Shown: piece after piece, positions 10,126 through 62,853 of the stretch
Layout: each line of letters begins with the position of its first letter
Numbering within the stretch: position 1 is the first letter of the stretch
Origin: a virus
Strand: one strand, 5' to 3'
Length of the DNA stretch: 64,000 nt
IMG/VR virus record: IMGVR_UViG_3300045988_066341
Program-made: the position numbers and the translations under genes
Notes under the pieces: generated by a model
What the model saw: only the letters and a program-made list of their open reading frames with translations
The model's database searches: none
Told to the model about the DNA's origin: nothing

Positions 10126-10230
10126 GCCAAAGGAAATCGGCAGGGTGGATCGTGAGTCGCTCCGCTCCTGGCCGGCCATGGAAGGCAACCACCAGCCCCA
10201 CGCCATGACGCCGCCACCTTGTTCATTGGC
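10126..10230. repeat. GC-rich CCAAGG-capped palindromic element A
   Basis: GCCAAAGGAAATCGG...central GGCCGGCC (10170-10177)...CACCTTGTTCATTGGC. Confidence 0.6.
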
Positions 10231-10460: not shown

Positions 10461-10521
10461 CGCATTTGCAATCCTTTCTGGGGTGATAACCCACAGGTGT
10501 ATAAGGCGCCTTGTACACCTG

Positions 10522-39084: not shown

Positions 39085-39247
39085 ATCCAAAGGAAAAAGG
39101 TGGTGGAAATGGAGGAGGAAAGCCAGATAAGTCCACCGTAAGCCACGGCAACGAGGCCAGTTGAGCACCGGCCATACATGCCTCCGAGCGGCGGTGGACA
39201 GCTCTATCCTGCCTCACGGGACATGACCACACCTTTTCCCTTTGGAT
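39085..39247. repeat. GC-rich element B1
   Basis: ATCCAAAGGAAAAAGGTGGTGG ... CCACACCTTTTCCCTTTGGAT, giving ~20-bp inverted ends, with central CCGGCC at 39168. Confidence 0.75.
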
Positions 39248-39274: not shown

Positions 39275-39378
39275 ATCCAAAGGAAATGGGAAGTCTTGGG
39301 GCGATGGAGCCTGCCGTAGAGGATACGGGCGGCCGGAGCGTGAGCGACCGCACAAGACCTCACCTTTTCTCCTTTGGC
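39275..39378. repeat. GC-rich element B2
   Basis: ATCCAAAGGAAATGGGAAGTCTTG ... CAAGACCTCACCTTTTCTCCTTTGGCT, with central GGCCGG at 39331. Confidence 0.75.
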
Positions 39379-39654: not shown

Positions 39655-39670
39655 TATTTACCCCCCCCCA
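39655..39670 (-). promoter_or_regulatory. T-G9-TAAATA motif pointing toward the GC-rich cluster and late operon
   Basis: C9 at 39661-39669. Only a 21-codon ORF follows on the minus strand. Confidence 0.4.
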
Positions 39671-39789
39671 TTTTATTACGACAATTTCGTATAAACAACA
39701 AATGGGCGACCTTCACAGGCTACCCATCCATCCGAATAACTTGTTTCGTATTTACGGAACTCGTATATTCGCAGCAAATAAAATCTTCT

Positions 39790-40942: not shown

Positions 40943-42352
40943 ATGGTAAAAGAGGATTTTAGAAATGAAAACGACCTCCTTCGTCATATTATGACGGTGG
41001 ATAAAAACGTGGAGCAGGGTCGTGCCTTGAAGAAGATTTTCACCACTAGGGAGAATCTGTTCATTACCGGTAGAGCTGGTAGTGGTAAAAGTACGTTCAT
41101 GAGACGTATCGTAAAGTTTTTGGGTAAGTGCGTTATCGTAGCACCGACTGGAGTAGCGGCGTTGAATGCCGGTGGACAGACCATTCATTCGTTCTTCTCT
41201 ATAAAGAACGATCCTTATATCCCTTCTATCGAGAGAGGTATGTTGTCGAATAAGGTGGATGTAAGTCCGTTTATGAAGAAGAAGATCAAGAATCTTGATA
41301 CTATTGTCATTGACGAGATCAGTATGGTAAGACCTGATTTGCTTGATGAGGTAGCTGACGTACTTAGACAATGCAGGCGTAGCAAGGAACCTTTCGGTGG
41401 AGTTAGGTTGATTATGTTTGGAGATCTATCACAACTACCTCCTGTGGTGACGGCGGATGATTTTATCGATAGGTATTATGAGAGCCGGTTCTTTTTCTCA
41501 TCTAAGGCATTAAGAGCCTCAGGATTCTCGGTCATTACCTTCGAGAACGTGTTCCGTCAAAAAGATCCTCAGCTTCTTTCCGTACTTGAGGATATAAGAT
41601 GTGGGGTTATTACCGATGAGTCAAGACAGATATTGGATAGTAGGGTCAAGTATCCGGATAATATGGATAATACTATAATTATATGCTCAACTAACAAAGA
41701 GGCGTATGAGATAAATAAGACTAATCTTGATAAGATCAATAATAAGGTATTTAAGTTCGATGCTACTGTATTCGGGGAGAAGCCTGTAGCGCCCTGTGAG
41801 GATGAGCTTATAGTAAAGGTAGGAGCTAAGGTCATAATAACCAGAAACGGCAATGGATATGTCAATGGCTCGATGGGTATCATAACCAGCATAGATACTA
41901 TTGATGAGACGATATATGTTCATCTAGATAACGATACTGAGGTGGAGATAACCAAAGAGAAGTGGGAGAAGATGAAGTATAAGCAGGTAGATGATTCCCT
42001 TGAAGGCATTTCTTGCGGCTATATAATACAATATCCATTGAGGTTAGGATACGCTATAACCGTTCATAAATCTCAGGGAATGACTTTAGATAATATATTC
42101 GTAGACATCAGCAGAGCCTTCGAAATAGGACAGATATATACCGCTCTTTCAAGATGTAGGTCTATAGACGGGCTTTATCTGAAATCAGTGCCTAAGGAAG
42201 ATATGGTACTGCTAAGCGATAAGATATCTGACTTTATAGAGAAGGTGGATGAGAATGAGGGTGTTTTGAATCCAGAAAAGATATCTGATATCGGTAAGGA
42301 TATGATCAAGAAACAACAGGATTTGTTTAATTTCGATGAATACGGATTATAA
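40943..42352 (+). CDS. PIF1/RecD-like SF1B DNA helicase
   Basis: GRAGSGKST (Walker A), VAPTGVAALNAGGQTIHSFF, VIDEISMV, AITVHKSQGMTLD, YTALSRCRS. TATCTTTG motif 20 nt upstream. Confidence 0.85.
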   Translation: MVKEDFRNENDLLRHIMTVDKNVEQGRALKKIFTTRENLFITGRAGSGKSTFMRRIVKFLGKCVIVAPTGVAALNAGGQTIHSFFSIKNDPYIPSIERGMLSNKVDVSPFMKKKIKNLDTIVIDEISMVRPDLLDEVADVLRQCRRSKEPFGGVRLIMFGDLSQLPPVVTADDFIDRYYESRFFFSSKALRASGFSVITFENVFRQKDPQLLSVLEDIRCGVITDESRQILDSRVKYPDNMDNTIIICSTNKEAYEINKTNLDKINNKVFKFDATVFGEKPVAPCEDELIVKVGAKVIITRNGNGYVNGSMGIITSIDTIDETIYVHLDNDTEVEITKEKWEKMKYKQVDDSLEGISCGYIIQYPLRLGYAITVHKSQGMTLDNIFVDISRAFEIGQIYTALSRCRSIDGLYLKSVPKEDMVLLSDKISDFIEKVDENEGVLNPEKISDIGKDMIKKQQDLFNFDEYGL

Positions 42353-43338
42353 TGGCTAAGAAAGAACTTTTTTCAGACGTAGATGAGTTAGTATCATCTT
42401 TAAATAAAGAGCTTGGAGAAGGCTCGATAATGAACTTCGGCGATGATAAGCCTATAATATCCATACCAAGGGAAAGCACTGGTTCTCTGGTGGTGGACAA
42501 GGCCCTCGGCGGCGGATGGGCGGTAGGCCGGATCCATGAGCTGGTCGGGATGGAATCTTGTGGCAAGACCATGATGTGTACGTTAAGTATGATCGAGTTC
42601 CAGAAAAAGCACCCCGATAAGCTGGTAGCTATAATAGACGTGGAGAACGCTTTTGATATCGAATACGCTAAGAAGATGGGATTGGACGTTAACCGGTTCC
42701 TTATTTCCCAGCCAAGCTACGGGGAGTTGGCTATCGATATCACGGCCAAGCTGGTGGAGTCCGGCAGGGTAGGATTCATTGTCGTGGATTCCGTGGCGAA
42801 CTTGGTCCCGAAGAAGGAGATCGAGGGTGATATGGAAGACAGCAACATGGGATTACAAGCCCGGTTGATGTCAAAAGCTATGAGAGTTCTTACCGGGATC
42901 GTAAACAAAAGCGATTGTGTTCTGGTATTCATCAACCAGTATCGTGAGAAGATTGGTGTAATATACGGTGATCCTAAGGTAACAACCGGCGGTAATGCCC
43001 TTAAATTCTACGCCTCTATCCGTATGGAAATGTCGAGGAAGAAGGTCATTGTAGGAGAAGACGGGTCTTCTATCGGTCATGAGGTTAGGATAAAGGTATT
43101 GAAGAACAAGACAGCTATACCTTTCCAGATAGCAGAGACGGCTTTGTATTATGGCGTAGGATTTGACAAGGAGCTTGAACTTTTGAAGTTATGTGAGGAA
43201 ACCGGTATCTTTACCCGTAAAGGATCATGGTACTGGTATGGCGAGGTCCGGGTAGGGAATGGAGTGGATAATACGTTAAGTATCATGAGGGATAATCAAG
43301 AATTGTGTCAAGAATTAAGAACTAAATTGAATTTGTAA
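42352..43338 (+). CDS. recA: RecA-family recombinase
   Basis: GMESCGKT P-loop. The stretch ..IDVENAFD..YAKKMG.D...LISQP..GE.A..I...L..SG....VVDSVA.LVP..EIEGDM.DS..GLQARLMS.A.R.LTG......C..VFINQ.REKIG...G.P..TTGGNALKFYAS.R follows the bacterial RecA core closely. Confidence 0.9.
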   Translation: MAKKELFSDVDELVSSLNKELGEGSIMNFGDDKPIISIPRESTGSLVVDKALGGGWAVGRIHELVGMESCGKTMMCTLSMIEFQKKHPDKLVAIIDVENAFDIEYAKKMGLDVNRFLISQPSYGELAIDITAKLVESGRVGFIVVDSVANLVPKKEIEGDMEDSNMGLQARLMSKAMRVLTGIVNKSDCVLVFINQYREKIGVIYGDPKVTTGGNALKFYASIRMEMSRKKVIVGEDGSSIGHEVRIKVLKNKTAIPFQIAETALYYGVGFDKELELLKLCEETGIFTRKGSWYWYGEVRVGNGVDNTLSIMRDNQELCQELRTKLNL

Positions 43339-48945: not shown

Positions 48946-49019
48946 GGACCCGTAGCTCAATTGGTAAGAGCAACTGGCTCATAACCAGAAGGTTGTCGGT
49001 TCAAGCCCGGCCGGGTCCA
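48946..49019 (+). tRNA. tRNA-Met (CAT); elongator type, although a lysidine-modified Ile2 tRNA cannot be excluded
   Basis: Acceptor GGACCCG/CGGGTCC. D arm GCTC-AATTGGTAA-GAGC. Anticodon loop CTCATAA. T arm GTCGG-TTCAAGC-CCGGC. 74 nt. The G1-C72 pair argues against an initiator. Confidence 0.85.
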
Positions 49020-49115
49020 CGCTATTTTTGGGGGAAAAACTAGCATAGAGTTTTGTCATTAGGTTTTTTAAAGTTTAGACGTTTGATGTCCTGGTTCGTG
49101 AGAATAAGGACATAT

Positions 49116-49187
49116 GCCCTAATAGTTCAATGGATAGAACACGTCGGTCCTAACGATGAAATTTCGGTTCGATTCCGGATTGGGGTA
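49116..49187 (+). tRNA. tRNA-Arg (CCT)
   Basis: Acceptor GCCCTAA/TTGGGGT (two G-U pairs). D arm GTTC-AATGGATA-GAAC. Anticodon stem CGTCG/CGATG with loop GTCCTAA. T arm TTCGG-TTCGATT-CCGGA. 72 nt. Confidence 0.7.
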
Positions 49188-49315
49188 CATGGTGTTTTCT
49201 TAAACATATTCCCGTAGGTCGGTAATTAACGATAACCGGTAGACAGCCTACGGGAATTAATAAAATCTTACGTGCTTAAGATCGCTTTCAGTTCTATTTT
49301 TCGTGTGTAATCTAT

Positions 49316-51547: not shown

Positions 51548-51556
51548 TATCAATAT

Positions 51557-51590
51557 CTGCCCTAGGAATTGCTTAGGGCAGGTTCGTTTT
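51557..51590. terminator. Bidirectional hairpin between convergent genes
   Basis: CTGCCCTA-ggaattgct-TAGGGCAG, T-rich on the plus side. Confidence 0.5.
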
Positions 51591-52118: not shown

Positions 52119-52126
52119 CAAAGATA
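52119..52126 (-). promoter_or_regulatory. TATCTTTG promoter motif
   Basis: 16 nt upstream of ATG 52102. Confidence 0.5.
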
Positions 52127-52155: not shown

Positions 52156-52228
52156 GCCAAAAAGAACGGGAGGCGGTGGGAGGACGGGGGATGCTCGGAA
52201 GGATGGAAGCCAGCCCGTTCCCTTGGAT
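52156..52228. repeat. GC-rich element C
   Basis: GCCAAAAAGAACGGG ... CCCGTTCCCTTGGAT. The 3' half is ~75% identical to element E. Confidence 0.7.
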
Positions 52229-52310
52229 TCAGCGACATGATTCGAGAATAAATCATATATTTGTATGTACAAAATGCATAATAATATGATATTAAATAAA
52301 ATTAACTCAA

Positions 52311-52326
52311 TGGGGGGGGGTATTTT
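52311..52326 (+). promoter_or_regulatory. T-G9-TATTTT motif upstream of 52352..53026
   Basis: G9 at 52312-52320, 31 nt before the ATG. Confidence 0.5.
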
Positions 52327-52351
52327 CCGTCCTCCATAAAAACAATAGATT

Positions 52352-53026
52352 ATGTTAAGAAGAAGAATGTTAAGTCAAATGCCATTACCGCCGTCCGGTA
52401 ACGTGAATGACGCTTATTTTTACGTGGAAGCTCCATGGATAAAAGATCTATCAAAATATAATATGAATGTGGATGGATCTATGTATATGGATATTGATAA
52501 ATATAATGGTAAATATGTATTTTCCATGGGAAGAGTAGGAACCTACAATTCCTATATCAAATTTGATAATGACTCGAATATATTACCATGCCCTCAACCA
52601 GATAACGAAATATCCATAGAAGCGTTGCTCTATTTAAATACACAACAGGAAGGAAGATATTATCTCTTCGCTCCATATGGAACCCAATCTACTACACAAA
52701 GCTATTTATGTATCGGTGTTAATGTCTCATCATATGGGACTTCCCTTTTTTATACCCAAGGACGATCTGTGGCTATACAACCATATCAGTGGATACATGT
52801 AATGGCGTCGTGGAGAAATGGGTATTTAAGGGAATATATTGGAGGAGTACTGAATTATGAGGATGCGACTAATGTGATGTATACACGAAACTATCAAACA
52901 TATTATTTTAATATAGGAGGATATCCATCAGCATATAACATGGGGCTCCCGGGAATGTTTAGGTATGTAAGGATCTGGAATTATGCTAAGAACTTTGACT
53001 TGGATAAATTCGTGCCGGATACTTGA
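52352..53026 (+). CDS. LamG/concanavalin-like lectin-fold protein with MLRRRM N-terminus
   Basis: 224 aa. ..YQWIHVMASWRNGYLREYIGG...x..FRYVRIWNYA fits the LamG jelly-roll signature. Confidence 0.6.
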   Translation: MLRRRMLSQMPLPPSGNVNDAYFYVEAPWIKDLSKYNMNVDGSMYMDIDKYNGKYVFSMGRVGTYNSYIKFDNDSNILPCPQPDNEISIEALLYLNTQQEGRYYLFAPYGTQSTTQSYLCIGVNVSSYGTSLFYTQGRSVAIQPYQWIHVMASWRNGYLREYIGGVLNYEDATNVMYTRNYQTYYFNIGGYPSAYNMGLPGMFRYVRIWNYAKNFDLDKFVPDT

Positions 53027-53088
53027 TCATACGATATTAAGGTGGTGGTCGTGCCACTACCTATCTATTATTCCATAATAAAGATATA

Positions 53089-53164
53089 TACCAAGGGAAG
53101 TAGCCGGCGGAAGCCCCGATGGGTAGGCCCGGAGGGATGAAGGGAGGCCTACCTCCCTTTGGTA
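53089..53164. repeat. GC-rich element D (between convergent genes)
   Basis: TACCAAGGGAAGTAGCC ... GGCCTACCTCCCTTTGGTA. Confidence 0.75.
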
Positions 53165-53185
53165 CTACATCCTCCTCACAATATA

Positions 53186-53749
53186 TTATGATGGTACTAC
53201 AATTACTATATTTACATTATAGGTGTTATTGTAAATGCCAGTTCCAACGGCAACAGATTGGCATCCCTCACAGGCATTGGCTGTTATACAATGATTACTT
53301 GTTATAAGATGACCTTGCCAAGTTATACGATTGTTACTTGTAATCTGATTATAAAATTCAGACATGTAAGTGAAATTGATAATCTCCTCAGGATCGGTTA
53401 TCTCCGTTATAGGAGTAAATTTAGTTATCCTATTCCCGTATAACTCCGTATCAGCTAAATCACAATGCACACCAGAATTATATAGATACGTGAGAGTCCC
53501 TTTTGAAACACCTCCAGTCGTGCCTAATAAAATGTTGTACTCATATTGTTGATCCTTTGAAACTATCTGTCCACCTATTCTTATAACTTCTATCTTCTTA
53601 TTGCGATATATATCAAGATAAGATCCGTTAAAATCAGATTGATATGTATCTCCATCAATATATATATCTACAGGATTAGGACACATGCTCTTGTCTATAT
53701 TAATACGGTAGTGGATCTTACCGGAAGAAGAAGTCCTGCGCCTAAACAT
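53186..53749 (-). CDS. Hypothetical protein with MFRRR N-terminus
   Basis: 187 aa. T-G10-TATTTT motif 28 nt upstream, with AAGGAGG just before the ATG. Confidence 0.55.
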   Translation of the reverse strand: MFRRRTSSSGKIHYRINIDKSMCPNPVDIYIDGDTYQSDFNGSYLDIYRNKKIEVIRIGGQIVSKDQQYEYNILLGTTGGVSKGTLTYLYNSGVHCDLADTELYGNRITKFTPITEITDPEEIINFTYMSEFYNQITSNNRITWQGHLITSNHCITANACEGCQSVAVGTGIYNNTYNVNIVIVVPS

Positions 53750-53771
53750 ACCCCCTCCTTATCTGAGGGTT

Positions 53772-53788
53772 AAAATACCCCCCCCCCA
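53772..53788 (-). promoter_or_regulatory. T-G10-TATTTT motif upstream of 53186..53749
   Basis: C10 at 53778-53787 on the plus strand. Confidence 0.5.
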
Positions 53789-53876
53789 CGAAGTTATATG
53801 TAATATATTGATACATGATTAAATAATTTAAGTTACGTACAAATATAATAAATTATATTAGATGGGGGAGGGAAGA

Positions 53877-53952
53877 TACCAAGGAAGGGTGGCTGGCGTC
53901 ATACCCGCCGGGAAGGCTATAAGGGATGGGAGCCAGCCCCGTTCTATTGGGT
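53877..53952. repeat. GC-rich element E
   Basis: TACCAAGGAAGGGTGGCTGG ... CCAGCCCCGTTCTATTGGGT. Confidence 0.7.
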
Positions 53953-53967
53953 CAGTAGGGTGTATGA

Positions 53968-54723
53968 TCACTCGATGTCACGTACAAATCGAACAGAAGA
54001 GGTTAGGCGCTTGTATCGGGTGAATGTGCGCCCATTGTTGAATAGTACGATCCATCCGGAGTTGGAGCTATGCTCTGAACTAGACCAATAATATCTGGTA
54101 TCTAACGGCTGTCCACCAATAGCCAATAACGCGTTATTGACGCTAATTAAGTACATATATATCAATGAAAGCTGACCACATGATGGGATATACCAATCAT
54201 CATATCCTTTAGCGTCAGCACTAGCTAAGAACGTATTAAGTACATGACCGGCTGTCGCATAGGAAGTATAAGAACCGCCACCGGTAGTCACCCCTTTTAA
54301 TACATTGGAATTCGCTTTCCCATCCCAATCAGATAAAGCCCCATTCGTCCAGGAGCTAACATCATCCGGAAGATATGGAGTACCTTTGTATGAATCTTGC
54401 TCAGGTTTCAGGAAACCAAAATCATTGCTCCCGTCTACTTTGTCATAATTTGTAATGCCGGTCTGATCCGTACCATATTCACCCCAATAAAAAGAATAAG
54501 TCTTGTTAGAAGAATCGGGCAAACCGGACGTGGCTGTTTTGTAGCTTTGATTAGAATCTTCATTCTTCTCAATCATGATCTTATGATCATCATGTACAAT
54601 AGCTACGGATATACATTGATAATCCGCCTTTGACAAAGGTATTAATCTACCATCCTGTTTAACGGCATAAACGCCATTATCAACAGGGGATTTATAACTT
54701 GAATAAAATCTCCTCCTTATCAT
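53968..54723 (-). CDS. DUF1566/Lcl-C-terminal-like lectin-type protein with MIRRRF N-terminus
   Basis: 251 aa. ..DDWYIPSCGQL..x..YYWSSSE.S...W.V.F..G......K.....VRFVR matches the DUF1566 pattern (from memory). Confidence 0.6.
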   Translation of the reverse strand: MIRRRFYSSYKSPVDNGVYAVKQDGRLIPLSKADYQCISVAIVHDDHKIMIEKNEDSNQSYKTATSGLPDSSNKTYSFYWGEYGTDQTGITNYDKVDGSNDFGFLKPEQDSYKGTPYLPDDVSSWTNGALSDWDGKANSNVLKGVTTGGGSYTSYATAGHVLNTFLASADAKGYDDWYIPSCGQLSLIYMYLISVNNALLAIGGQPLDTRYYWSSSEHSSNSGWIVLFNNGRTFTRYKRLTSSVRFVRDIE

Positions 54724-54747
54724 AAGAATAAATTTTTACGAAGGATA

Positions 54748-54763
54748 TAAATACCCCCCCCCA
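54748..54763 (-). promoter_or_regulatory. T-G9-TATTTA motif upstream of 53968..54723
   Basis: C9 at 54754-54762, 30 nt before the ATG. Confidence 0.5.
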
Positions 54764-54885
54764 TCATGTATTTAACTTCTTTATTCATAATATATTATGT
54801 TTTAATTATATCGCAAATATAACAAATTAAATGAGATGGAAGGTGATATGGTTGTGAGGAAGTATGAGGGATATTCGGGGAGGAT

Positions 54886-55020
54886 GATATGCGGGACATT
54901 ATTGGAGAGATGGGGTGGGGTATGATGGGAGGGGGATATGCGGGACGGACCACCTCCCCGAAATCGGCCCGGCCGGGCTGCCGTTTTTGGACCAGCCCCC
55001 CCCCAATCCACAAAGGACGG
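54886..55020. repeat. Degenerate/composite GC-rich element F with internal C9 run
   Basis: GATATGCGGGAC occurs twice. CCCGGCCGGG palindrome at 54968-54977. CCGTTTTTGG end. C9 at 54996-55004. ATCCACAAAGGACGGGAAAC. Confidence 0.45.
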
Positions 55021-55282
55021 GAAACAAGAACGGTAAACGATCTGCGAGCCGAAAAAAGAATGATTATTTTGTGTTTAACTTGTTGATTATCAATCATATA
55101 AATCAATATTTTAATATATGTTTACATTTGATTAGATTTATTACATATAATCGTCGAATTTTTATTGCAAAATATTTGTTGGACAATAAAACATGTAGTA
55201 TATTTGCTCCTGTAAGATAACAGCATTAACAAACAAGGCGTACCAGGTGCCATTATAAGTCCTAAAGGTATAGGCAAAGTAT

Positions 55283-55813
55283 ATGATAAGTAAAGAGATT
55301 AACAAAGTACAGAATGAAGTTAAAAAATCAAACGAAAAGACATTAACAGGTGCAGTAAAAGCTTGGTGCAACCTGTTTAAATCTGGTAAAGAAATAAACG
55401 ACATACTAAAAGAAAATGATATTAAAGTATCAAAGGAAGTCGTTCCCGCTTTGGTTGCTTTAGCTAAAGACAAAGAAGTAGTAATACAACTTTGCAAAGA
55501 AATACTCCCACGAGTAAATAATACGTTTTGCGCATACAAGGAAGTAGAGCGTGAATACTATGATAAAAACGAACAGGATAAAAACAAAAAGCTTAAAATG
55601 AGTGAAATAGAGGATATAGCAATACTAGGATCGTCTCATAAACGCTTTGGATATAATAAGCCTATAGAGTACGATTTTGGTATATATTACGAAACGTTTA
55701 ACGGTGCAGACAAACGTATCATAAAGTGTGCCGTACCTATCAAACGGTATACATTTAATCTCATTGCAAAGTGTGTCACTTACTATTTGACACACCCCAA
55801 AAATGAAAGATAA
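55283..55813 (+). CDS. Hypothetical Lys-rich protein
   Basis: 176-aa ORF followed by a 9-bp-stem hairpin. Confidence 0.55.
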   Translation: MISKEINKVQNEVKKSNEKTLTGAVKAWCNLFKSGKEINDILKENDIKVSKEVVPALVALAKDKEVVIQLCKEILPRVNNTFCAYKEVEREYYDKNEQDKNKKLKMSEIEDIAILGSSHKRFGYNKPIEYDFGIYYETFNGADKRIIKCAVPIKRYTFNLIAKCVTYYLTHPKNER

Positions 55814-55823
55814 CAAATAATTA

Positions 55824-55850
55824 GCCCCTATATCATTTATGTATAGGGGC
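55824..55850 (+). terminator. Hairpin after 55283..55813
   Basis: GCCCCTATA-tcatttatg-TATAGGGGC with no clear T-run. Confidence 0.45.
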
Positions 55851-56372
55851 GTTATGGTAGCACACCTATGCGTTCCCGTCGCGCTACTGATTTAGACTAA
55901 ATAGGTACGATATTTGATATTTTGATATAAACATATTGCTGGTTGTTAGGGTCTCGAGAGCCAGCAATAGATAGGCCGCCGCTTAGTAATGTGGTTTAGG
56001 TACTATCCTAGTCCAGGGTAGTACTATTATCTTTAGGTTTATATCAATCCGGTAAGTACGCTAGGTTAACCTAGTAGACCGTGTAAAAACACGGGGTATG
56101 TTGGTGTATATACGCATTTATAGGGCGTATGTCCATGCGTTGCTAGAGTAACATGTATGGAGTGCATTACGGGGCTATAACCGTGCCAATATATCAAAGC
56201 AATAGTATCTAAGGTTGCTTAAATACTTGGATACTATATGTAGTATCAAAATAGCAGCCCTTACAAGGGTATTTTGTGCGGTTAAATTGACGGACAAAGT
56301 GCGCCTTGTCGATACGTATCACGGACAACGTATGTATGTATTTGGCCGGCTTCGTTGTCGGCAAAGGGACTA
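55851..56372. other. ORF-free, hairpin-dense region (candidate structured RNA or replication-origin component)
   Basis: No credible ORF on either strand. At least 10 local stems (ATTGCTGG/CCAGCAAT, GTACTATCC/GGGTAGTAC, CTAGGTTAACCTAG, CCGTG/CACGG, ATACGC/GCGTAT, AAGCAA/TTGCTT, GATACTA/TAGTATC, GATACGTATC). Confidence 0.35.
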
Positions 56373-56466
56373 ATCCAAAGGGAATAGGGGGGGGCGTGCG
56401 GGCGTTCGGTTGGTTGTATTGATAAGGCCGGCCGTATTGCCCCCGGTCTCCCGTTTCTTATTGGTG
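56373..56466. repeat. GC-rich element G (contains a G8 run)
   Basis: ATCCAAAGGGAATAGGGGGGGG ... central GGCCGGCC (56426-56433) ... CCCCCGGTCTCCCGTTTCTTATTGGTG. Confidence 0.7.
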
Positions 56467-56485
56467 CCATTAAAAAGAATAGATT

Positions 56486-56692
56486 ATGTACAAAAAAAAG
56501 TTTGATAATTTGAATAAGAAATTATCCATTCAAAAAGAAAAGGCTTTAAAGTCCATCAAAAAAGCCCAAATGGAATTTTACATTGAACTTACCAAAGAAC
56601 TATACAATTCTAATAAATTAGATTGTAGCAGGGAGTCGGACAAGTGCAGGCGGAAACGTGTTAGTTACATGGCAAACAAATTGCGGCAATAG
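56486..56692 (+). CDS. Hypothetical small helical protein
   Basis: 68 aa, followed by a strong terminator. Confidence 0.5.
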   Translation: MYKKKFDNLNKKLSIQKEKALKSIKKAQMEFYIELTKELYNSNKLDCSRESDKCRRKRVSYMANKLRQ

Positions 56693-56724
56693 ATCGTTTG
56701 TTTTTATTTGATTTTAAAGTTTGT

Positions 56725-56766
56725 GCCCTTTCGTACTGTAGTGATATAGGACGAAAGGGCTTTTTT
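56725..56766 (+). terminator. Rho-independent terminator
   Basis: GCCCTTTCGT-16 nt-ACGAAAGGGC followed by TTTTTT. Confidence 0.8.
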
Positions 56767-56982
56767 GTGCCTATATTTTACAAAATGATAGCATATTAAT
56801 ATGTTTTGCTTACATATAAAAGTTTTGAGGCGGCAAATTTTAAGCCTTGATCGAAAATGTGTAAGTAAAATGATTTATTTAGCATCATTTTGTATACATA
56901 TATATCCATGCGGACGGGTATATTGTGCCCTTATGTATGGTTTCGTGCGTGAATCGATCCTAAAAGGTATATAATAGGCGGT

Positions 56983-56999
56983 ACTTATTGTATATTTTT
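56983..56999 (+). repeat. 17-nt direct repeat copy 1 (ACTTATTGTATATTTTT)
   Basis: Identical to 57114-57130. Confidence 0.8.
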
Positions 57000-57113
57000 T
57001 ATCTATATCTGGGCTTATCTTTCCTTAGAGGTAGCTCTAAGGCTTGATATATATATTATATTGTTGATACTCAATTAATTATATTATTTGGGTATTGTTT
57101 CTAAGTTACGGAT

Positions 57114-57130
57114 ACTTATTGTATATTTTT
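57114..57130 (+). repeat. 17-nt direct repeat copy 2, abutting ATG 57131
   Basis: Identical to 56983-56999. Confidence 0.8.
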
Positions 57131-57322
57131 ATGGGTATATTTATATATTTCGTACTTACCTTGTTTTGTGGTTACATGGCGTTTGAGTTGGGGCGGTATG
57201 TTATAGCTACGGGCGACGCCCTGCCCTTAATCATAGTTCTTTTATTGGCTTTATTATCAATACATTGCATAAAGCAAATATACAAGGCAATCAAGAACAA
57301 AGACCTCGACATCCTAGACTAA
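57131..57322 (+). CDS. Small two-helix membrane protein
   Basis: ATG at 57131 (the track start at 57095 is a TTG). MGIFIYFVLTLFCGYMAF....LPLIIVLLLALLSIHC. Confidence 0.5.
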   Translation: MGIFIYFVLTLFCGYMAFELGRYVIATGDALPLIIVLLLALLSIHCIKQIYKAIKNKDLDILD

Positions 57323-57420
57323 TCGGGCGTTCCACGTGGAACAATCGGGAGGAAGGTCTTGGTTTTTGCGCTGAAAGTTGATGGGGTTGGTTTGTTTTGC
57401 GGGAGGGGACACCTCCAGAC

Positions 57421-57515
57421 AAGATAAATCAAGGTAAATCAAAGGAGATCAAAGGGAATCAAAGAAAACCAAGAGAAACCAAGGGAGATCAAGGTGAACC
57501 GAGGGAAAACGAGGA
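57421..57515 (+). repeat. Array of ~10 degenerate decamers with exact 10-bp phasing (consensus AARGRRAWYC)
   Basis: aagataaatc|aaggtaaatc|aaaggagatc|aaagggaatc|aaagaaaacc|aagagaaacc|aagggagatc|aaggtgaacc|gagggaaaac|gaggaatcca. Confidence 0.85.
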
Positions 57516-57667
57516 ATCCAAGAATCCCAAATGAAATAAGGGGAATAAGTGGGATAAGGATAACCTCCAAACAATGGTACTCTCCAATACAGATAGGGGT
57601 CTTATAGGTATGGAGGTATGTCTATGTATGGGTGTGTGTTTCTTTGGGTGATGGAGGGAGTGTAGGA

Positions 57668-57741
57668 AACCAAGGGAAACGGGCGGCGGCGATGGCGTGG
57701 GGTCGGCCCCGCTGGTCGTCCGTCCCTGTTTCCTTTTGGCG
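57668..57741. repeat. GC-rich element H
   Basis: AACCAAGGGAAACGGGCGG ... CCGTCCCTGTTTCCTTTTGGCG, about 16 bp pairable. Confidence 0.8.
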
Positions 57742-57770
57742 TTAGTGTAATATTAAAATCTGATAGTGAT

Positions 57771-58013
57771 ATGACGAAAGAGGAAGCGAAAGAAAGGTTC
57801 GGTGACAATATAATAAACAAACTATTGTCGCTTGGTGCTGAACCGACAAACGTATGCAGGAATGACGATATTGTGGAATGGTGCAGTGATGGATGCATAA
57901 AAGTGGGCGATATTGAAGTATGGGCTTACTATTACTTTTATGAAGGAGAGAACCCTGATTTATGTAATTGGGAGGATCGTATGGAGATAGAGGTAGAGGA
58001 ATGTTGGATTTAA
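57771..58013 (+). CDS. Hypothetical small protein
   Basis: 80-aa ORF, 29 nt after GC-rich element H. Confidence 0.5.
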   Translation: MTKEEAKERFGDNIINKLLSLGAEPTNVCRNDDIVEWCSDGCIKVGDIEVWAYYYFYEGENPDLCNWEDRMEIEVEECWI

Positions 58014-58297
58014 AATCGGTTGATATGAGATTCATTTATTTAATGGAGCTTAGAGGAAAGGATATATACGTAGGCGACAAGAAGTGCAAAAGAGTAAAAA
58101 TATATGTAGGCAGACCGTTGAGGGATACGCCTAAAACCTATAAACAAATAGGCGGATTTGTAGCAAAAGAACTATCCAACGCTTATAACAGCGGTTGTGT
58201 TTCCATCTATGAAGCAAAGGATAAAACGCTCAGATATTCGGTTTATCGAGACGGTTGTTTTTATCCTTATTACGGGAAATTAGAGGTGGCAGAATAA
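58001..58297 (+). CDS. Hypothetical small protein
   Basis: Start moved to ATG 58001 (the track start is a TTG at 57968). Confidence 0.45.
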   Translation: MLDLKSVDMRFIYLMELRGKDIYVGDKKCKRVKIYVGRPLRDTPKTYKQIGGFVAKELSNAYNSGCVSIYEAKDKTLRYSVYRDGCFYPYYGKLEVAE

Positions 58298-58372
58298 TAC
58301 CAAGGGGAACGCGGGCGGCTGCGGGGAGGCTGGACAGGCCTTGTCGCCAGCGCCGTCCTTTTTCCCTTGGCA
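58298..58372. repeat. GC-rich element I
   Basis: TACCAAGGGGAACGCGGGCGGC ... GCGCCGTCCTTTTTCCCTTGGCA. It fills the spacer between the stop at 58297 and the ATG at 58388. Confidence 0.8.
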
Positions 58373-58387
58373 ACAATAGAAATAAAT

Positions 58388-58861
58388 ATGGACGAAATAG
58401 AACTACTAAGATTACAAGATGAAGCGCTATCTTACCTTCGTGATAATATTACAAAGGATGAGGCGTATTATGTCCTTACGACTGACAAGGATATGATAGA
58501 GATTCTTATAGCTGATAAGAAGGACGGAAGCAAACGTATCAAGATTCTTGATATGGAATATACTATCGAGAAGGATGATATGTTATTGTTATTCGATACA
58601 GATGGGATAATAGACGAATGTCTTTTGGTTGCCAGCTACATAGGGGTAAATATGTATTTTCGCAGGCAAGATGTCAACGCTATTTTGAATAACATCAATA
58701 GAGAGAAAGTTATGAAATATCCTTACATAGCTATTCAGTTAGATAATATACAGACTATCGAAAAGCGTAGGGTTATTTTTGAGATCACCGGACATAGGAT
58801 AGATGATAACAAAGAGAAAATAGATTTTATGTTTGTTTATTTTATGGCTAGAATATTATGA
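58388..58861 (+). CDS. Hypothetical protein
   Basis: Start moved to ATG 58388. The track TTG start at 58367 lies inside GC-rich element I. Confidence 0.5.
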   Translation: MDEIELLRLQDEALSYLRDNITKDEAYYVLTTDKDMIEILIADKKDGSKRIKILDMEYTIEKDDMLLLFDTDGIIDECLLVASYIGVNMYFRRQDVNAILNNINREKVMKYPYIAIQLDNIQTIEKRRVIFEITGHRIDDNKEKIDFMFVYFMARIL

Positions 58862-59088
58862 GAGCGAGGAGGACTGTGAAGGAAAGAGATATTGTAAAGA
58901 TATTGGTATTCGGGTATGATAGGATGCTTATAAAATCCATTAAGGATTCCGGATTCAGAAGTATGTCGGATGTAATATCGTACGCCAATAATATGGTCGG
59001 GGATAAGCCCATTGATCATATTAGGGTATCAAATGAGGCTCGTGGATGGTGTGGGTCATATACTAATTATGGTAAAAGAATAGATTAG
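58858..59088 (+). CDS. Small protein, tandem paralog A
   Basis: 76 aa, alignable with 59108..59332 (..K.RD.....F..DR.....DSG........A.......I.HI.V.N....W.G.YT..GK.I). Confidence 0.5.
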   Translation: MRARRTVKERDIVKILVFGYDRMLIKSIKDSGFRSMSDVISYANNMVGDKPIDHIRVSNEARGWCGSYTNYGKRID

Positions 59089-59107
59089 TTCGATAGTAGG
59101 ATATGAT

Positions 59108-59332
59108 ATGAGAAGGATTATAAAAGAGAAAGACGATATCAAGGTATCTATATTTAGTGGGGATAGATTGGCTCGTGTTTTCATTGATTCTGGGTATAAG
59201 AATATAGCTATGGTGATAGCCGATTGCAATAGAATAGCTAATGGTTGTTATCATATACATCATATTGAGGTGGTAAATATGGATAGGGAATGGTATGGCA
59301 CATATACCGCTGATGGAAAGAAAATTAATTAA
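59108..59332 (+). CDS. Small protein, tandem paralog B
   Basis: 74 aa; see 58858..59088. Confidence 0.5.
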   Translation: MRRIIKEKDDIKVSIFSGDRLARVFIDSGYKNIAMVIADCNRIANGCYHIHHIEVVNMDREWYGTYTADGKKIN

Positions 59333-59345
59333 TATAAATAACATC

Positions 59346-59654
59346 ATGAATAATATCATAGAGAACAATGATGGGGTAAAAAGAAAGGTAAGGGTATATG
59401 ATTTCGGCGAGAAGGTCGCTGATAGATATACTATTGTATGCGTAAGTGACAGGAATAAAGATTCAAGAGGAATCTTATTTTATCCGATGTTCACTTGTAA
59501 CGAAAACCCGTCGCATCCGCAAGGAATAGGGATGTATGTAGGGGACTATTATCCTCATAAGGGAGGTATGTACAACTTAGGGAGAAGGGTGAAGGATATA
59601 ATGTCTTTGCCTAAAGAAGTGATTAGATACATAAAATGGGTAACAACAACATGA
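59346..59654 (+). CDS. Hypothetical protein
   Basis: Start moved to the first ATG after the upstream stop. Confidence 0.45.
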   Translation: MNNIIENNDGVKRKVRVYDFGEKVADRYTIVCVSDRNKDSRGILFYPMFTCNENPSHPQGIGMYVGDYYPHKGGMYNLGRRVKDIMSLPKEVIRYIKWVTTT

Positions 59655-59938
59655 ATGAAATAGTTTACAACAATTACGATTTGGTTGCTTTCGAGCAGAA
59701 TGGAGAAGTGGTAGTAGCCGTAACATTCTACAGGTATTACAAGAAGAAAGCTAAGGGCGAGGTTAATTATAGATGGAGAACCAGATGCCCGGAGCTGGTG
59801 GATAAGATCGTAAAACACCGTACCAAGGTATTTACCGGTCAACTTATCCAGTTAGCGAAAGCGTATGGGGAGAAAAAGGTTATAAAATATCAAAAGGAGG
59901 AGGAAGGAGTATGTCAAAATACGATAGAGACGCTATAG
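59651..59938 (+). CDS. Hypothetical protein
   Basis: ATGA overlap start at 59651. Confidence 0.45.
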   Translation: MNEIVYNNYDLVAFEQNGEVVVAVTFYRYYKKKAKGEVNYRWRTRCPELVDKIVKHRTKVFTGQLIQLAKAYGEKKVIKYQKEEEGVCQNTIETL

Positions 59939-60264
59939 AGATATATATACTGGATCATATAGATACAGATAATTATGGTAAGCAGTTTAAATACGATAGG
60001 GAATATATGTCTTTTATGCTTAGTGTGTTCAAGAATGAGTATAAAGAACATATCAAAAGGGATGGAATTAAGAAGGCTTTTGAGGATTACATAATGAGCG
60101 TTCCGTCTATATTCAGGATTCATATAGCGGATTGTGATATTAGATATTTATTACGTTCATGGGGAGTGGAGTTTGATGAGGATGATGATGAGATATACAT
60201 CTTATACAAGAAGATCATAAGAGAGGTCTTTTTTAAGATGTGTGAGGATATGAAAGTTTGTTAA
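59911..60264 (+). CDS. Hypothetical protein
   Basis: 117 aa, with GGAGGAGGAAGGAG just upstream of the ATG. Confidence 0.5.
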   Translation: MSKYDRDAIEIYILDHIDTDNYGKQFKYDREYMSFMLSVFKNEYKEHIKRDGIKKAFEDYIMSVPSIFRIHIADCDIRYLLRSWGVEFDEDDDEIYILYKKIIREVFFKMCEDMKVC

Positions 60265-60270
60265 TGTTGA

Positions 60271-60353
60271 ACCAAACCTTGGCGGGGCGGAAGGATATAT
60301 CATGATCGTACGTGTACGGATATGATCCGGGGTCGGTTCCCGGCGCCTTGGCA
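60271..60353. repeat. GC-rich element J (variant ends)
   Basis: ACCAAACCTTGGCGGGGCGG ... CCGGGGTCGGTTCCCGGCGCCTTGGCAC. The ends are a direct CCTTGGC rather than clean inverted repeats. Confidence 0.5.
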
Positions 60354-62455: not shown

Positions 62456-62853
62456 TAAGATACTTACTTGTGATGGCGATGATAATATTAACACCGCCAA
62501 AAGGAAACGGAGGCATGCCCCTCGCCCCGAAGCCGGCCGTGGTAGAGGTACGGGTGTGGAATAAGCTGGCGGCCGCCTTGTCTTTCGTGGAGTCAAGGGA
62601 TGACGATCGAGCGTATAACGCCTCATCCGGGGCTTTAGGAAGGTGGCAGATGAAAAAGGTGTATGTAGATGGGGTTAATAGGATATTGCGCCTTAAACGG
62701 GAGAAAAAGCGGTATAGATACGATGATAGAACAAATCCTGTCAAGGCTAGGGAGATGTTCGAGATATACCAATCTCATCATAATCCTAAAAAGGATATAG
62801 ATCGGGCTATAAGATTGCATAGGGGGCTACATTCCCATAAATATGTTAAGTAA
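62452..62853 (+). CDS. Lytic-transglycosylase (SLT)-like protein with hydrophobic N-terminus
   Basis: ..LAAALSFVESRDDDRAYNASSGALGRWQM.. fits the SLT motif (ES...x..GA.G..Q). The N-terminal MIRYLLVMAMIILT is signal- or anchor-like. Start uncertain. Confidence 0.5.
   Translation: MIRYLLVMAMIILTPPKGNGGMPLAPKPAVVEVRVWNKLAAALSFVESRDDDRAYNASSGALGRWQMKKVYVDGVNRILRLKREKKRYRYDDRTNPVKAREMFEIYQSHHNPKKDIDRAIRLHRGLHSHKYVK

What the first reader, a model, noticed from the sequence alone, without database searches (positions are those of the whole stretch)
52156..60353. Dispersed family of GC-rich, CCAAGG-capped imperfect palindromes filling intergenic spacers (at least 11 copies in the window)
The genome is visibly AT-rich, yet GC-rich blocks of 73-165 bp recur.

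Copies: 10126-10230, 39085-39247, 39275-39378, 52156-52228, 53089-53164, 53877-53952, ~54886-55020 (degenerate), 56373-56466, 57668-57741, 58298-58372, 60271-60353 (variant), and possibly 62496-62590.

Shared architecture:
- Each begins WWCCAA(A)GGRAA and ends with the inverted complement. Examples are TACCAAGGGAAGTAG...CTACCTCCCTTTGGTA and CCAAGGGAAACGGGCGG...CCGTCCCTGTTTCCTTTTGG. Each can therefore fold into a long bulged hairpin or cruciform.
- Several carry a central GGCCGG(CC) palindrome (10170, 39168, 39331, 54968, 56426, 62532).
- Several share an internal module GATGGRAGCCWGCC (52202-52216, 53925-53939, 39303-39315). This argues for common descent rather than convergent hairpins.

Placement:
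- They occupy gene spacers precisely. Element I starts 1 nt after the stop at 58297 and ends 15 nt before ATG 58388.
- They end 15-29 nt before the ATGs at 56486, 57771, 58388 and 60377.
- They explain every spurious GC-rich ORF in the track at these places.

They lack U-tracts, so they are not classical terminators, and I know of no described repeat family like this.

Candidate roles: MITE/REP/RPE-like selfish hairpins; RNA processing, stability or antitermination elements; extruded hairpin promoters for a phage RNA polymerase (as in N4); or paired binding sites for one DNA-binding protein.
Basis: partly seen in the sequence, partly recalled or inferred. Interest (0 to 1): 0.8.

Follow-up and report, generated by a model that had tools for sequence, protein, structure and literature searches.

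The report
Hairpin linkers between phage gene cassettes
An abundant human-gut crAss-like phage carries its own family of GC-rich hairpin sequences at the borders of small gene modules, and related phages have gained, lost and swapped those modules at the hairpins; what the hairpins do for gene expression is inferred, not shown.

Summary
Six of the twelve listed copies are real long hairpins that fold better than composition-matched shuffles: F 53877, G 56373, H 57668, I 58298, 39085 and 39275. D, E and 10126 are weak or chimeric members. J, 62496 and 54886-55020 are not demonstrably members.

The window is an epsilon crAss-like phage of about 150 kb. The family was found only in this phage group; it was absent from crAssE-Sib and from bacterial genomes.

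Orthologous copies keep the hairpin through compensatory changes. For G this holds on the sense strand only.

Across 80 relatives, 49 of 86 distinct rearrangement junctions touch a hairpin. Hybrid hairpins (D/E, D/F, H/I) show crossovers inside the elements.

New finding: the 5' cap motif CCAAGGGAA also forms a hypervariable tandem array with a 9-11 nt period, 125-400 nt upstream of H.

Best reading: sense-RNA hairpins at module boundaries (3'-end formation, processing or stability) whose mutual homology drives cassette shuffling, like T4 PeSLs. The recombination part is shown; the RNA role is inferred.

MITE-like mobility and N4-type hairpin promoters are poorly supported. A cap-binding protein remains a live alternative.

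The parts
58298..58372 (+). Hairpin I, a core member. It sits between the stop at 58297 and the ATG at 58388.
   Evidence: MFE -44.5 kcal/mol; z -3.9 (+) and -1.9 (-). It is the main rearrangement hotspot: 99 breakpoints and 23 distinct junction ends. An I or alt-I copy was recovered in front of gene 58388-58861 in 70 of 81 loci by blastn, with a variant allele at the same position in others such as L049.
57668..57741 (+). Hairpin H, a core member, 29 nt upstream of the ATG at 57771.
   Evidence: MFE -46.1 kcal/mol; z -4.8 / -2.5. 25 alleles give mean z -4.3. Cap variants are compensatory: GGGAAAC/GTTTCC versus GGGAGAAC/GTTCCCC. H/I hybrids occur in L012 and L072.
56373..56466 (+). Hairpin G, 19 nt upstream of the ATG at 56486.
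   Evidence: 47 alleles keep the fold: 80.6% of cells are paired against 40-55% in slid controls, 8 pairs show compensatory change, and 0 of 500 shuffles reach the covariation score. It is structured only on the + strand (mean z -2.07 versus -0.68).
53877..53952 (+). Hairpin F, between minus-strand gene 53968-54723 and the minus-strand promoter at 53847.
   Evidence: z -3.6 / -3.2. It inverts together with its gene in L047. D/F hybrids occur in L052, L065 and L077.
53089..53164 (.). Hairpin E, between convergent genes 52352-53026 (+) and 53186-53749 (-). It is chimeric.
   Evidence: z -0.9 / -1.6. Its left half is 69% identical to F-left. Its centre and right match the single resident hairpin of L001/L019.
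52156..52228 (.). Hairpin D, a chimeric remnant between divergent promoters at 52126 (-) and 52256 (+).
   Evidence: z -0.5. Its left half is 89% identical to the resident hairpin of L019, and its right half is 75% identical to F-right.
39085..39247 (-). Long (163 nt) member in the divergent region between the late (-) and replication (+) gene blocks.
   Evidence: 19-nt outer arms are 95% complementary. The inner part has z -2.5 / -3.1. It is conserved in the relatives recovered at 39 kb, including a divergent allele that keeps the caps.
39275..39378 (-). Member in tandem with 39085. It folds better on the minus strand.
   Evidence: z -1.9 (+) and -4.6 (-). The G profile hits it on the minus strand.
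10126..10230 (-). Probable degenerate member in minus orientation, between a minus-strand gene end and the minus promoter at 9676.
   Evidence: The caps pair, but z is only -0.4. The H profile hits it on the minus strand at E = 0.019.
57420..57530 (+). Tandem array of the 5' cap motif (CAAGGGAAAY units, period about 10), 140-250 nt upstream of H.
   Evidence: Tandem Repeats Finder: period 10, 6.9 copies. In relatives the array is hypervariable: units CCCAAGGGAA, CAAGGTAAAT or CAAGGGAAAC, from about 5 to more than 20 copies, always on the + strand, 125-400 nt upstream of H.
60271..60353 (+). J, a doubtful member that shows cap-like ends only.
   Evidence: z -0.6 / 0.0; 23 alleles give mean z -0.35. 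No cross-hit in nhmmer. Two deletion junctions end at its 5' edge.
62496..62590 (+). Doubtful or decayed member with a 5' cap only.
   Evidence: z +1.5 / +1.0. No cross-hit. One junction starts at 62496.
42352..43338 (+). Phage RecA-like recombinase, a candidate enzyme for the homology-driven crossovers (inferred).
   Evidence: Pfam RecA, E = 2.6e-90.

Best explanation
These are module-boundary hairpins of one lineage of epsilon crAss-like phage.

**Inferred RNA role.** Each element is transcribed as part of the sense transcript of its gene block and folds into a long, bulged, GC-rich stem-loop of 25-35 bp. The stem-loop marks the end of one expression module. The most likely modes of action are a barrier that forms or protects 3' ends, or a double-stranded processing site of the RNase III type. 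Efficient termination is less likely, because in the 56-62 kb block the downstream genes have no promoter of their own. The 15-29 nt A-rich spacer that follows is left free for Shine-Dalgarno-independent initiation, as used in Bacteroidota.

**Shown DNA-level consequence.** The copies share 20-40 nt of sequence (CCAAGGGAAAC-GGGNGGCGG and its complement). Homologous recombination between copies, probably by the phage RecA, deletes, inserts, replaces or inverts the gene cassettes they flank and leaves hybrid hairpins behind.

Comparison of genomes shows the recombination consequence. The RNA-level role rests on strand asymmetry, covariation and position.
For: **Structure is under selection.**
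- 47 alleles of G differ widely in their arms, yet 80.6% of cells pair (slid controls 40-55%).
- 43 double-change cells are seen against 20.4 in shuffles (0 of 500 shuffles reach this), and 8 pairs show compensatory change.
- H cap variants co-vary.

**The sense strand is the structured strand.**
- G alleles give mean z -2.07 on + and -0.68 on -. H, I and F are also stronger on +.
- A strand-neutral alignment of the arms gives G.U: A.C = 19:3 for F, G, H and I, and 1:6 for 10126 plus 39085, which lie in or beside the minus-strand gene block.
- Profile hits place 10126 and 39275 in minus orientation.

**Only 'a long helix' is conserved.** The register of the bulges is not conserved, since RNAalifold fails on sequence alignments. 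This is what is expected of nuclease or terminator hairpins.

**Position.**
- Elements lie after stop codons and at least 15 nt before the next ATG.
- In the L001/L019 arrangement, and at F and 10126, the order on the coding strand is gene end, hairpin, host-type promoter, gene.
- No intergenic TAnnTTTG promoter lies on the + strand in 55.9-64 kb, so G, H and I are intercistronic (consensus from PMC7366714).

**Recombination.**
- 86 distinct junction classes lie in 51.2-63.3 kb; 49 touch a hairpin.
- 58 of 172 junction ends fall in 8.6% of the sequence.
- D/E, D/F and H/I hybrids exist.
- A 'hairpin plus two genes' module is inserted before I in L006, and a cassette is inverted together with F in L047.
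- The phage encodes RecA.
Against: - No U-tract follows any copy, while classical hairpin-plus-T-run terminators exist nearby (56725-56766, 51555-51583), so these elements are a different device.
- D and the 39-kb pair lie between divergent promoters, where no predicted transcript crosses them.
- F is oriented against its upstream gene.
- The excess of wobble-type over A.C-type variants from Watson-Crick pairs is only 32:17, against about 1.1:1 expected.
- Strand asymmetry follows the regional GC skew, so a mutational cause is not excluded for H, I and F.
- A plain hairpin role does not explain the conserved cap sequence or the tandem array of the cap motif.
- No transcript data were available.
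Confidence: 0.45

Rival explanations
1. DNA-level recognition sites. A phage DNA-binding protein (replication initiator, small terminase or transcription factor) recognises CCAAGGGAA. The tandem array upstream of H is its main loading site, iteron-like, and each hairpin offers two inverted sites at its base. The palindromic interior brings them together or allows extrusion.
For: - The 9-nt cap motif recurs as 5 to more than 20 direct repeats with a 9-11 nt period, close to one helical turn. The repeats are always on the + strand, beside AT-rich non-coding DNA.
- The motif is about 20-fold over-represented.
- The cap sequence is conserved across paralogues whose interiors differ.
- The 3' cap of G is invariant even where the 5' partner is lost.
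- D and the 39-kb pair lie upstream of promoters rather than inside predicted transcripts.
Against: - The whole interior keeps hairpin potential through compensatory change, which two isolated binding sites would not require.
- G has no significant structure on the minus strand, so a cruciform is unlikely there.
- Array unit variants (CAAGGTAAAT, CCCAAGGGAA, a 22-nt unit) do not co-vary with the caps.
- No candidate binding protein was identified.
Confidence: 0.2
2. Single-stranded or extruded hairpin promoters for a virion RNA polymerase, as in N4, that drive the early modules.
For: - G, H and I lie 15-29 nt upstream of start codons in a block without host-type promoters.
- The phi14:2 virion polymerase transcribes single-stranded but not double-stranded DNA, and its early promoters show no common motif (10.1101/2020.03.07.982082).
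- A divergent virion polymerase is reported for epsilon phages (PMC11054128).
Against: - crAssE-Sib, which is reported to carry that polymerase, has no such hairpins.
- Yutin et al. found no crAss-type transcription block in the epsilon group (PMC7886860).
- G is unstructured on the template strand.
- The elements are 70-160 nt with a variable register, unlike N4's 5-7 bp stems (own knowledge).
- D, E, F, 10126 and the 39-kb pair sit beside host-type promoters or late genes.
Confidence: 0.07
3. Selfish mobile hairpins (MITE, REP/REPIN, or like the GC clusters of yeast mitochondria) that spread into AT-rich spacers.
For: - GC-rich palindromes with conserved termini sit in AT-rich spacers of one lineage only.
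- Some copies are flanked by TA.
Against: - No naked presence/absence polymorphism was seen in the relatives examined (80 loci around 58 kb, 80 around 39 kb); every indel carries genes.
- Paralogues are only about 55-75% identical, with no recent bursts.
- There are no consistent target-site duplications.
- No transposase was found among the roughly 45 window proteins scanned against Pfam or PHROGs.
- The hairpin is maintained by compensatory change.
Confidence: 0.07
4. No function of their own. The elements are neutral palindromic scars of illegitimate or homologous recombination at module borders, kept similar by gene conversion.
For: - D and E are chimeric and barely more stable than shuffles.
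- J, 62496 and 54886 are not structured.
- The family is dispensable in the sister genus.
Against: - F, G, H, I and the 39-kb pair are far more stable than shuffles.
- G keeps pairing across deeply diverged alleles.
- Gene 58388 is preceded by an I-type hairpin in every arrangement recovered, whatever lies upstream.
Confidence: 0.08

Closest known systems
PeSLs (promoter-early stem-loops) of T4-type phages (Arbiol, Comeau, Krisch; PMC2839356, PMC4122927)
   Same: - Short repeated regulatory sequences containing a stem-loop lie between small accessory genes in hyperplastic regions.
- Insertions, deletions and replacements between close relatives have their endpoints in the repeats.
- Homology-driven cassette shuffling is the outcome.
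   Different: - PeSLs are composite: a terminator-like stem-loop plus an early sigma-70 promoter. Here G, H and I have no promoter in the 15-29 nt before the ATG.
- The hairpins here are much longer (70-160 nt), GC-rich in a 41% GC genome, and carry a conserved CCAAGG cap.
- The host phylum (Bacteroidota) and the phage order (Crassvirales) are different.
- A tandem array of the cap motif has no PeSL counterpart.
RNase III processing hairpins between T7 genes (R0.3, R1.1 and others; own knowledge)
   Same: Long, imperfect, bulged stem-loops without U-tracts lie in intercistronic spacers of polycistronic phage transcripts, just upstream of start codons. Only the helix is conserved, not a precise shape.
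   Different: Cleavage is untested here. T7 sites are about 50-60 nt and not GC-rich. They are not known as recombination linkers and do not share a cap motif that also forms tandem arrays.
Integron attC sites and gene cassettes (own knowledge)
   Same: Imperfect palindromes of 57-141 bp have conserved ends and a variable centre, fold on one strand, and pair with small, mostly promoterless ORFs. Arrays differ between strains by whole cassettes.
   Different: - The attC core sites RYYYAAC/GTTRRRY are absent.
- No integrase was found (IntegronFinder failed on epsilon phages, PMC11054128).
- Crossovers fall at various places, in the apex or the arms, instead of one fixed site in R'.
- Some cassettes here carry their own promoter.
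REP/BIME and REPIN elements; GC clusters of yeast mitochondrial DNA (own knowledge)
   Same: These are intergenic palindromic repeats. REPs stabilise upstream mRNA. Yeast GC clusters are GC-rich hairpins in AT-rich spacers and are recombination hotspots.
   Different: There is no evidence of transposition, no RAYT-type transposase, and no near-identical copies. The elements here are fixed at given junctions.
Iterons of plasmid and phage origins (own knowledge), for the cap-motif array only
   Same: Direct repeats of about 10 bp are spaced about one helical turn apart next to AT-rich DNA, and the same motif recurs elsewhere in inverted pairs.
   Different: No initiator was identified. Copy number and unit sequence are hypervariable between near-identical genomes, which is unusual for functional iterons.

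Membership tests
PeSL-type regulatory/recombination cassettes | Repeats lie between small accessory ORFs in hyperplastic regions | tested here: met
   Elements D to I lie in spacers of the 52-62 kb accessory/early block.
PeSL-type regulatory/recombination cassettes | Endpoints of indels and replacements between close relatives lie in the repeats | tested here: met
   49 of 86 junction classes touch a hairpin, and hybrid hairpins are seen.
PeSL-type regulatory/recombination cassettes | Composite of a stem-loop followed directly by an early promoter | tested here: not met
   There is no TAnnTTTG or other recognisable promoter between G, H or I and the ATG. Only F, 10126 and the L001-type hairpin are followed by a host-type promoter.
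Intrinsic (Rho-independent) terminator | GC-rich stem-loop immediately followed by a U-tract | tested here: not met
   No T-run follows any copy on either strand. The terminator scan picks other, shorter hairpins.
RNase III processing site | Imperfect double-stranded RNA of about 20 bp or more within a polycistronic transcript | tested here: inconclusive
   Helices of 25-35 bp are predicted for F, G, H and I. Transcription through them is inferred from the lack of promoters, not shown.
RNase III processing site | Cleavage by RNase III | not testable with these tools
   This needs in vitro cleavage or RNA end mapping.
MITE / REP / REPIN | Presence/absence polymorphism of the bare element, with target-site duplication | tested here: not met
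   No naked presence/absence polymorphism was seen in the 80 loci around 58 kb or the 80 around 39 kb; indels always include genes.
MITE / REP / REPIN | Many near-identical copies and a cognate transposase | tested here: not met
   Paralogues are 55-75% identical. No transposase was found among the scanned proteins of the window. The rest of the genome was not seen.
Integron attC | Core sites R''/R' (RYYYAAC ... GTTRRRY) and crossover at a fixed point in R' | tested here: not met
   The caps are CCAAGGRAA / TTYCCTTGG. Crossovers fall at the apex (D/E), the right arm (D/F) or the left arm (H/I).
Integron attC | Adjacent IntI-type tyrosine recombinase | tested here: inconclusive
   None was found among the window proteins scanned. 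Published IntegronFinder runs on epsilon phages found none. The full genome was not examined here.
N4-type hairpin promoter | Short conserved hairpin (5-7 bp stem, 3-nt loop) on the template strand | tested here: not met
   Elements are 70-160 nt with a variable register. G is not structured on the template strand.
Any Rfam family | Covariance-model match | tested here: not met
   The gathering-threshold scan of the whole window found only 3 tRNAs. The E-value scan of 51.5-64 kb gave nothing below E = 0.7.
Iterons (array at 57420-57530 only) | Direct repeats at helical spacing bound by an initiator next to an AT-rich unwinding region | tested here: inconclusive
   A period of 9-11 nt and AT-rich neighbours are seen. 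No initiator or origin function was shown.

The most novel reading that the evidence does not exclude
The CCAAGGGAA cap, its hypervariable tandem array and the capped hairpins form one recognition system for a dedicated, still unidentified phage protein. That protein acts on folded single strands to move promoterless gene modules: an integron-like cassette system in a crAss-like phage that uses neither attC core sites nor a known integrase. The array would be its loading or regulatory site.
Probability: 0.08. Interest if true: 0.85.

Novelty: new variant of a known kind. Interest (0 to 1): 0.5.

Why it matters
Epsilon crAss-like phages are among the most abundant viruses of the human gut. None is cultured, as far as I know, and their gene expression is unstudied.

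- **A concrete cis-element family.** This family can be looked for in metatranscriptomes to map transcript ends.
- **A mechanism for strain differences.** It explains mechanistically why strains of one phage differ by whole small-gene modules. These include lectin-like and adhesin-like cassettes and early genes that probably deal with the host.
- **Wider reach of a principle.** It shows that the T4 'regulatory linker' principle of modular shuffling has arisen independently in Crassvirales with a different kind of element.
- **A handle on an unknown factor.** The cap-motif array offers a way to find a sequence-specific factor that has not yet been identified.

Tried and rejected
- **RNAalifold.** Runs on MAFFT alignments of G orthologues and of paralogues gave almost no consensus pairs, because bulge registers differ. 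I therefore did not build a covariance model. The available alignments would have given a poor one, and custom alignments cannot be supplied. Instead I used per-sequence folds, shuffles, nhmmer profiles and the count of structure pairs on the structure of the window's G.
- **Extra cap-pair hits.** Hits at 699, 15952, 29244, 42712 and 51022, and a 58-nt element downstream of the window, lie inside ORFs and were set aside as chance or unresolved.
- **Pattern scan of IMG/VR.** All true hits belong to the same phage group of about 150 kb. Five outliers (L087, L119, L164, L186, L189) are chance matches in GC-rich coding DNA.
- **Pattern scan of 185,579 species genomes.** Only scattered single hits in GC-rich genomes appeared, with no family in Bacteroidales hosts.
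- **crAssE-Sib (portal 48% identical).** It has no capped hairpins and no nhmmer hit.
- **Y-RNA idea.** crAssE-Sib encodes a Ro60 homologue. There was no Rfam Y-RNA hit and no Ro60 in the 2.7 Mb of window-group DNA held. The Ro60-based locus search returned only crAssE-Sib relatives. The idea is unsupported, but the rest of the genome was not seen.
- **Wobble versus A.C polymorphism test.** The result was 32:17 against about 1.1:1 expected, which is suggestive only.
- **Literature searches.** Searches for a described equivalent in crAss-like phages found none.

Full report
**What the window is.**
- The window is 41% GC.
- It encodes a portal, a major capsid protein and a large terminase on the minus strand (2-39 kb). 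A replication/recombination block (Dda-like helicase, RecA, beta-clamp, dUTPase) lies on the plus strand (39.6-51 kb).
- The portal is 48% identical to that of crAssE-Sib (OR575929), a 151-kb epsilon crAss-like phage, and 30% identical to Cellulophaga phi17:2.
- The relatives found in IMG/VR include many contigs of about 145-160 kb from human gut samples, alongside shorter fragments.
- Host-type Bacteroidota promoters (TAnnTTTG, consensus as in PMC7366714) precede the late genes, the replication genes and three accessory cassettes at 52-55 kb. No intergenic one exists on the plus strand between 55.9 and 64 kb, where the small genes with hairpins G, H, I and J lie.

- The cap motif CCAARGGRAA occurs 11 times against 0.57 expected.
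- GC-rich sequence folds well by chance, and GC-rich islands are common in coding DNA too. I therefore used z-scores against dinucleotide shuffles.
- Six elements are clearly structured: F, G, H, I, 39085 and 39275. D, E and 10126 are weak. J, 62496 and 54886-55020 are no better than shuffles.
- Leave-one-out nhmmer profiles built from orthologues show two sequence subfamilies, {D, E, F} and {H, I}. Weak links run from H to 10126 and from G to 39275, both on the minus strand. J and 62496 have no link.
- Beyond the caps, paralogues share a 5' arm, CCAAGGGAAAC-GGGNGGCGG.
- The proposed internal module is exact in only two copies, and GGCCGG is common genome-wide.

**Is the hairpin selected, and on which strand?**
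- Gene 56486 is preceded by G in 56 relatives, with 48 different sequences. Nearly all fold into a long bulged hairpin on the plus strand.
- On the 47-row alignment the window's G structure is kept in 80.6% of cells, against 40-55% when partners are slid. There are 43 double-change cells against 20.4 in shuffles (0 of 500 shuffles reach this). Eight pairs show compensatory change, for example C-G 22 / U-A 12.
- H variants change both cap strands together.
- G alleles are structured only on the plus strand (mean z -2.07 versus -0.68). H, I and F are structured on both strands but more on plus.
- A strand-neutral alignment of the two arms gives 19 G.U against 3 A.C mismatches for F, G, H and I. 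It gives 1 against 6 for 10126 and 39085, which sit in or next to the minus-strand gene block. The minus-strand profile hits agree with this.
- Among variants arising from Watson-Crick pairs, wobble-type changes outnumber A.C-type 32:17, where third-codon-position rates predict about 1.1:1. This is suggestive only.
- The bulge register is not conserved between alleles or paralogues. What is kept is a long helix, not a shape.

**What the relatives show.**
- The 52-62 kb region is a mosaic. Breakpoints pile up at the 5' edge of I (99), at H (33) and at D, E and F.
- When the junctions are collapsed into distinct classes, 49 of 86 have an end within 25 nt of a hairpin. 58 of 172 ends fall in 8.6% of the sequence.
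- The junctions lie inside the elements.
  - MT836733 and about 15 of the 80 IMG/VR relatives fetched lack gene 52352-53026. They carry one hairpin made of D's left half and E's centre and right. D-left is 89% identical to that resident hairpin. E-left resembles F-left (69%) and D-right resembles F-right (75%).
  - This is the reciprocal product expected if a cassette carrying an F-type hairpin entered a resident hairpin by a single crossover.
  - L052, L065 and L077 fuse D to F. L012 and L072 fuse H to I.
  - L006 and nine others carry an extra module, 'hairpin plus two genes', in front of I. About 20 nt upstream of the hairpin is also repeated. MT836733 and others have one extra gene there.
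  - In L047, L053 and L062 the gene 53968-54723 with F is inverted between inverted copies of the promoter-leader.
- Crossover points vary (apex, left arm, right arm). That fits homologous recombination, for which the phage has a RecA, rather than a site-specific enzyme.
- Bare hairpins never come and go: I (or an allelic variant) was recovered in front of gene 58388 in every arrangement seen, G in front of 56486 in all 56 loci where both flanks were found, and the 39-kb pair in the loci recovered there.

**A new element: arrays of the cap motif.**
- A 10-nt tandem repeat lies 140-250 nt upstream of H, with units such as ATCAAGGGAA.
- In relatives this array is hypervariable in unit (CCCAAGGGAA, CAAGGTAAAT, CAAGGGAAAC, or a 22-nt unit containing CAAGG) and in copy number (about 5 to more than 20).
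- It is always on the plus strand, 125-400 nt upstream of H, and many assemblies break there.
- Its core equals the 5' cap of the hairpins. Neither a plain RNA-hairpin role nor recombination explains this. It is the main reason to keep a cap-binding factor in play.

**How it most likely works.**
- I commit to module-boundary RNA hairpins with a recombinational side effect (confidence 0.45).
- Shown: selection for a helix; sense-strand specificity for G; placement after stops and at least 15 nt before the next ATG; crossovers inside the elements.
- Inferred: that they are transcribed, and that they form or protect 3' ends or are cut by a double-strand-specific RNase.
- They are not classical terminators. 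No U-tract follows them, classical terminators exist nearby (56725-56766, 51555-51583), and the genes after G, H and I have no promoter of their own, so read-through must occur.
- The spacing leaves free the A-rich -15 to -1 region that Bacteroidota use instead of a Shine-Dalgarno sequence (PMC7366714).

**Rivals.**
- A DNA-binding protein that recognises the cap (0.20). The array, the cap conservation and the copies that lie upstream of promoters (D and the 39-kb pair) support it. The selected interior helix and the strand-specific fold of G count against it.
- Hairpin promoters for a virion RNA polymerase (0.07).
  - The lack of host-type promoters and the single-strand preference and unknown early promoters of the phi14:2 enzyme make this tempting.
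  - Against it: crAssE-Sib, reported to carry the enzyme, lacks the hairpins; Yutin et al. saw no transcription block in epsilon phages; and G is unstructured on the template strand.
- Selfish mobility (0.07) and functionless scars (0.08) are contradicted by the fixed positions and by the compensatory changes.

**Comparison with what is known.**
- In effect the elements work like the PeSLs of T4-type phages (PMC2839356, PMC4122927). They fail the PeSL definition, because G, H and I have no promoter half.
- In anatomy and placement they resemble T7 RNase III sites.
- In architecture (conserved ends, variable centre, strand bias, small cassettes) they recall integron attC sites. However, they lack the core sites, a fixed crossover point and an integrase.
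- No Rfam family matches.
- The family is confined to this phage group: absent from crAssE-Sib, from other IMG/VR contigs and from bacterial genomes.
- I rate it a new variant of a known kind.

**Limits.**
- I saw 64 kb of a genome of about 150 kb, plus 10-20 kb stretches of relatives.
- Relatives are closely related, so counts of sequences are not counts of events.
- The structure used for the covariation count came from one of the aligned sequences.
- No expression data were available.

Noticed in passing
window 32415-36347 (-): The large terminase is 1310 aa, against 937 aa in crAssE-Sib. It carries an intein with a LAGLIDADG endonuclease at about residues 737-1081 (Pfam Intein_splicing 3.6e-09, LAGLIDADG_3 2.8e-08).
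   Followed up: partly
window 52312-52320 (+), 53768-53777 (-), 54754-54762 (-); also 54995-55003: Each of the three accessory cassettes has a run of 9-10 G followed by TATTT, between its TAnnTTTG promoter and its ATG. The run length differs between relatives (9-11). This could be a slippage-prone leader acting as a phase-variation switch; it remains unexplained.
   Followed up: no
window 52277-52366 versus 54710-54799; L047 5719-6700, L053, L062, L028: The promoter-leader regions of the first and third cassette are inverted repeats. In some relatives the segment between them, or part of it, is inverted, which places the Lcl-domain gene under the other promoter and leaves an orphan promoter. 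It looks like a shufflon-type switch of lectin/adhesin-like genes (LamG at 52352-53026, Lcl_C at 53968-54723).
   Followed up: partly
window 55814-56372 and 56693-57094: Two long stretches have no convincing ORF in the block that lacks host-type promoters. They contain AT-rich inverted repeats (56779-56800 / 56873-56894). They are reminiscent of the highly expressed early non-coding RNAs reported for phi14:2, or of an origin region.
   Followed up: no
window 63865-64000 (runs off the end); L008, L017, L031, L055, L061: A 27-nt in-frame tandem repeat (SSGNGAQIG-type) sits in a gene that starts at 63521. Copy number is highly variable, and many assemblies end in it.
   Followed up: no
window 39804 (-): A full Bacteroidota promoter match (TTTG plus TAnnTTTG) lies on the minus strand inside the 5' part of plus-strand gene 39622-40839. 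If active, it would send an antisense transcript through the two 39-kb hairpins in the orientation in which they fold best.
   Followed up: no
window 57095-57322 (+): A small ORF encodes a probable membrane protein (hydrophobic, 52-75 aa) and sits alone between the AT-rich non-coding stretch and the cap-motif array.
   Followed up: no
L083 23091-24725 and L083 8986-10125, 14190-15413 (crAssE-Sib): The sister-genus phage encodes a Ro60 homologue next to tRNA genes, and two TnpB genes. None was seen in the window-group DNA held. Whether the window's phage has a Ro60/Y-RNA pair elsewhere is unknown.
   Followed up: partly
window 10388-10461, 48946-49020, 49116-49188: There are three tRNA genes: Cys-GCA, Met-CAT and Arg-CCT. 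tRNA-Cys lies on the plus strand inside the minus-strand block, with its own TAnnTTTG box at 10374.
   Followed up: no
window 58279-58297 and L001 14120-14138, L006 9888-9908: The last 20 nt or so of whichever gene precedes an I-type hairpin are themselves homologous (ATTWGAGGTGG..AATRATA). The repeated linker is therefore longer than the hairpin and reaches into coding sequence.
   Followed up: partly
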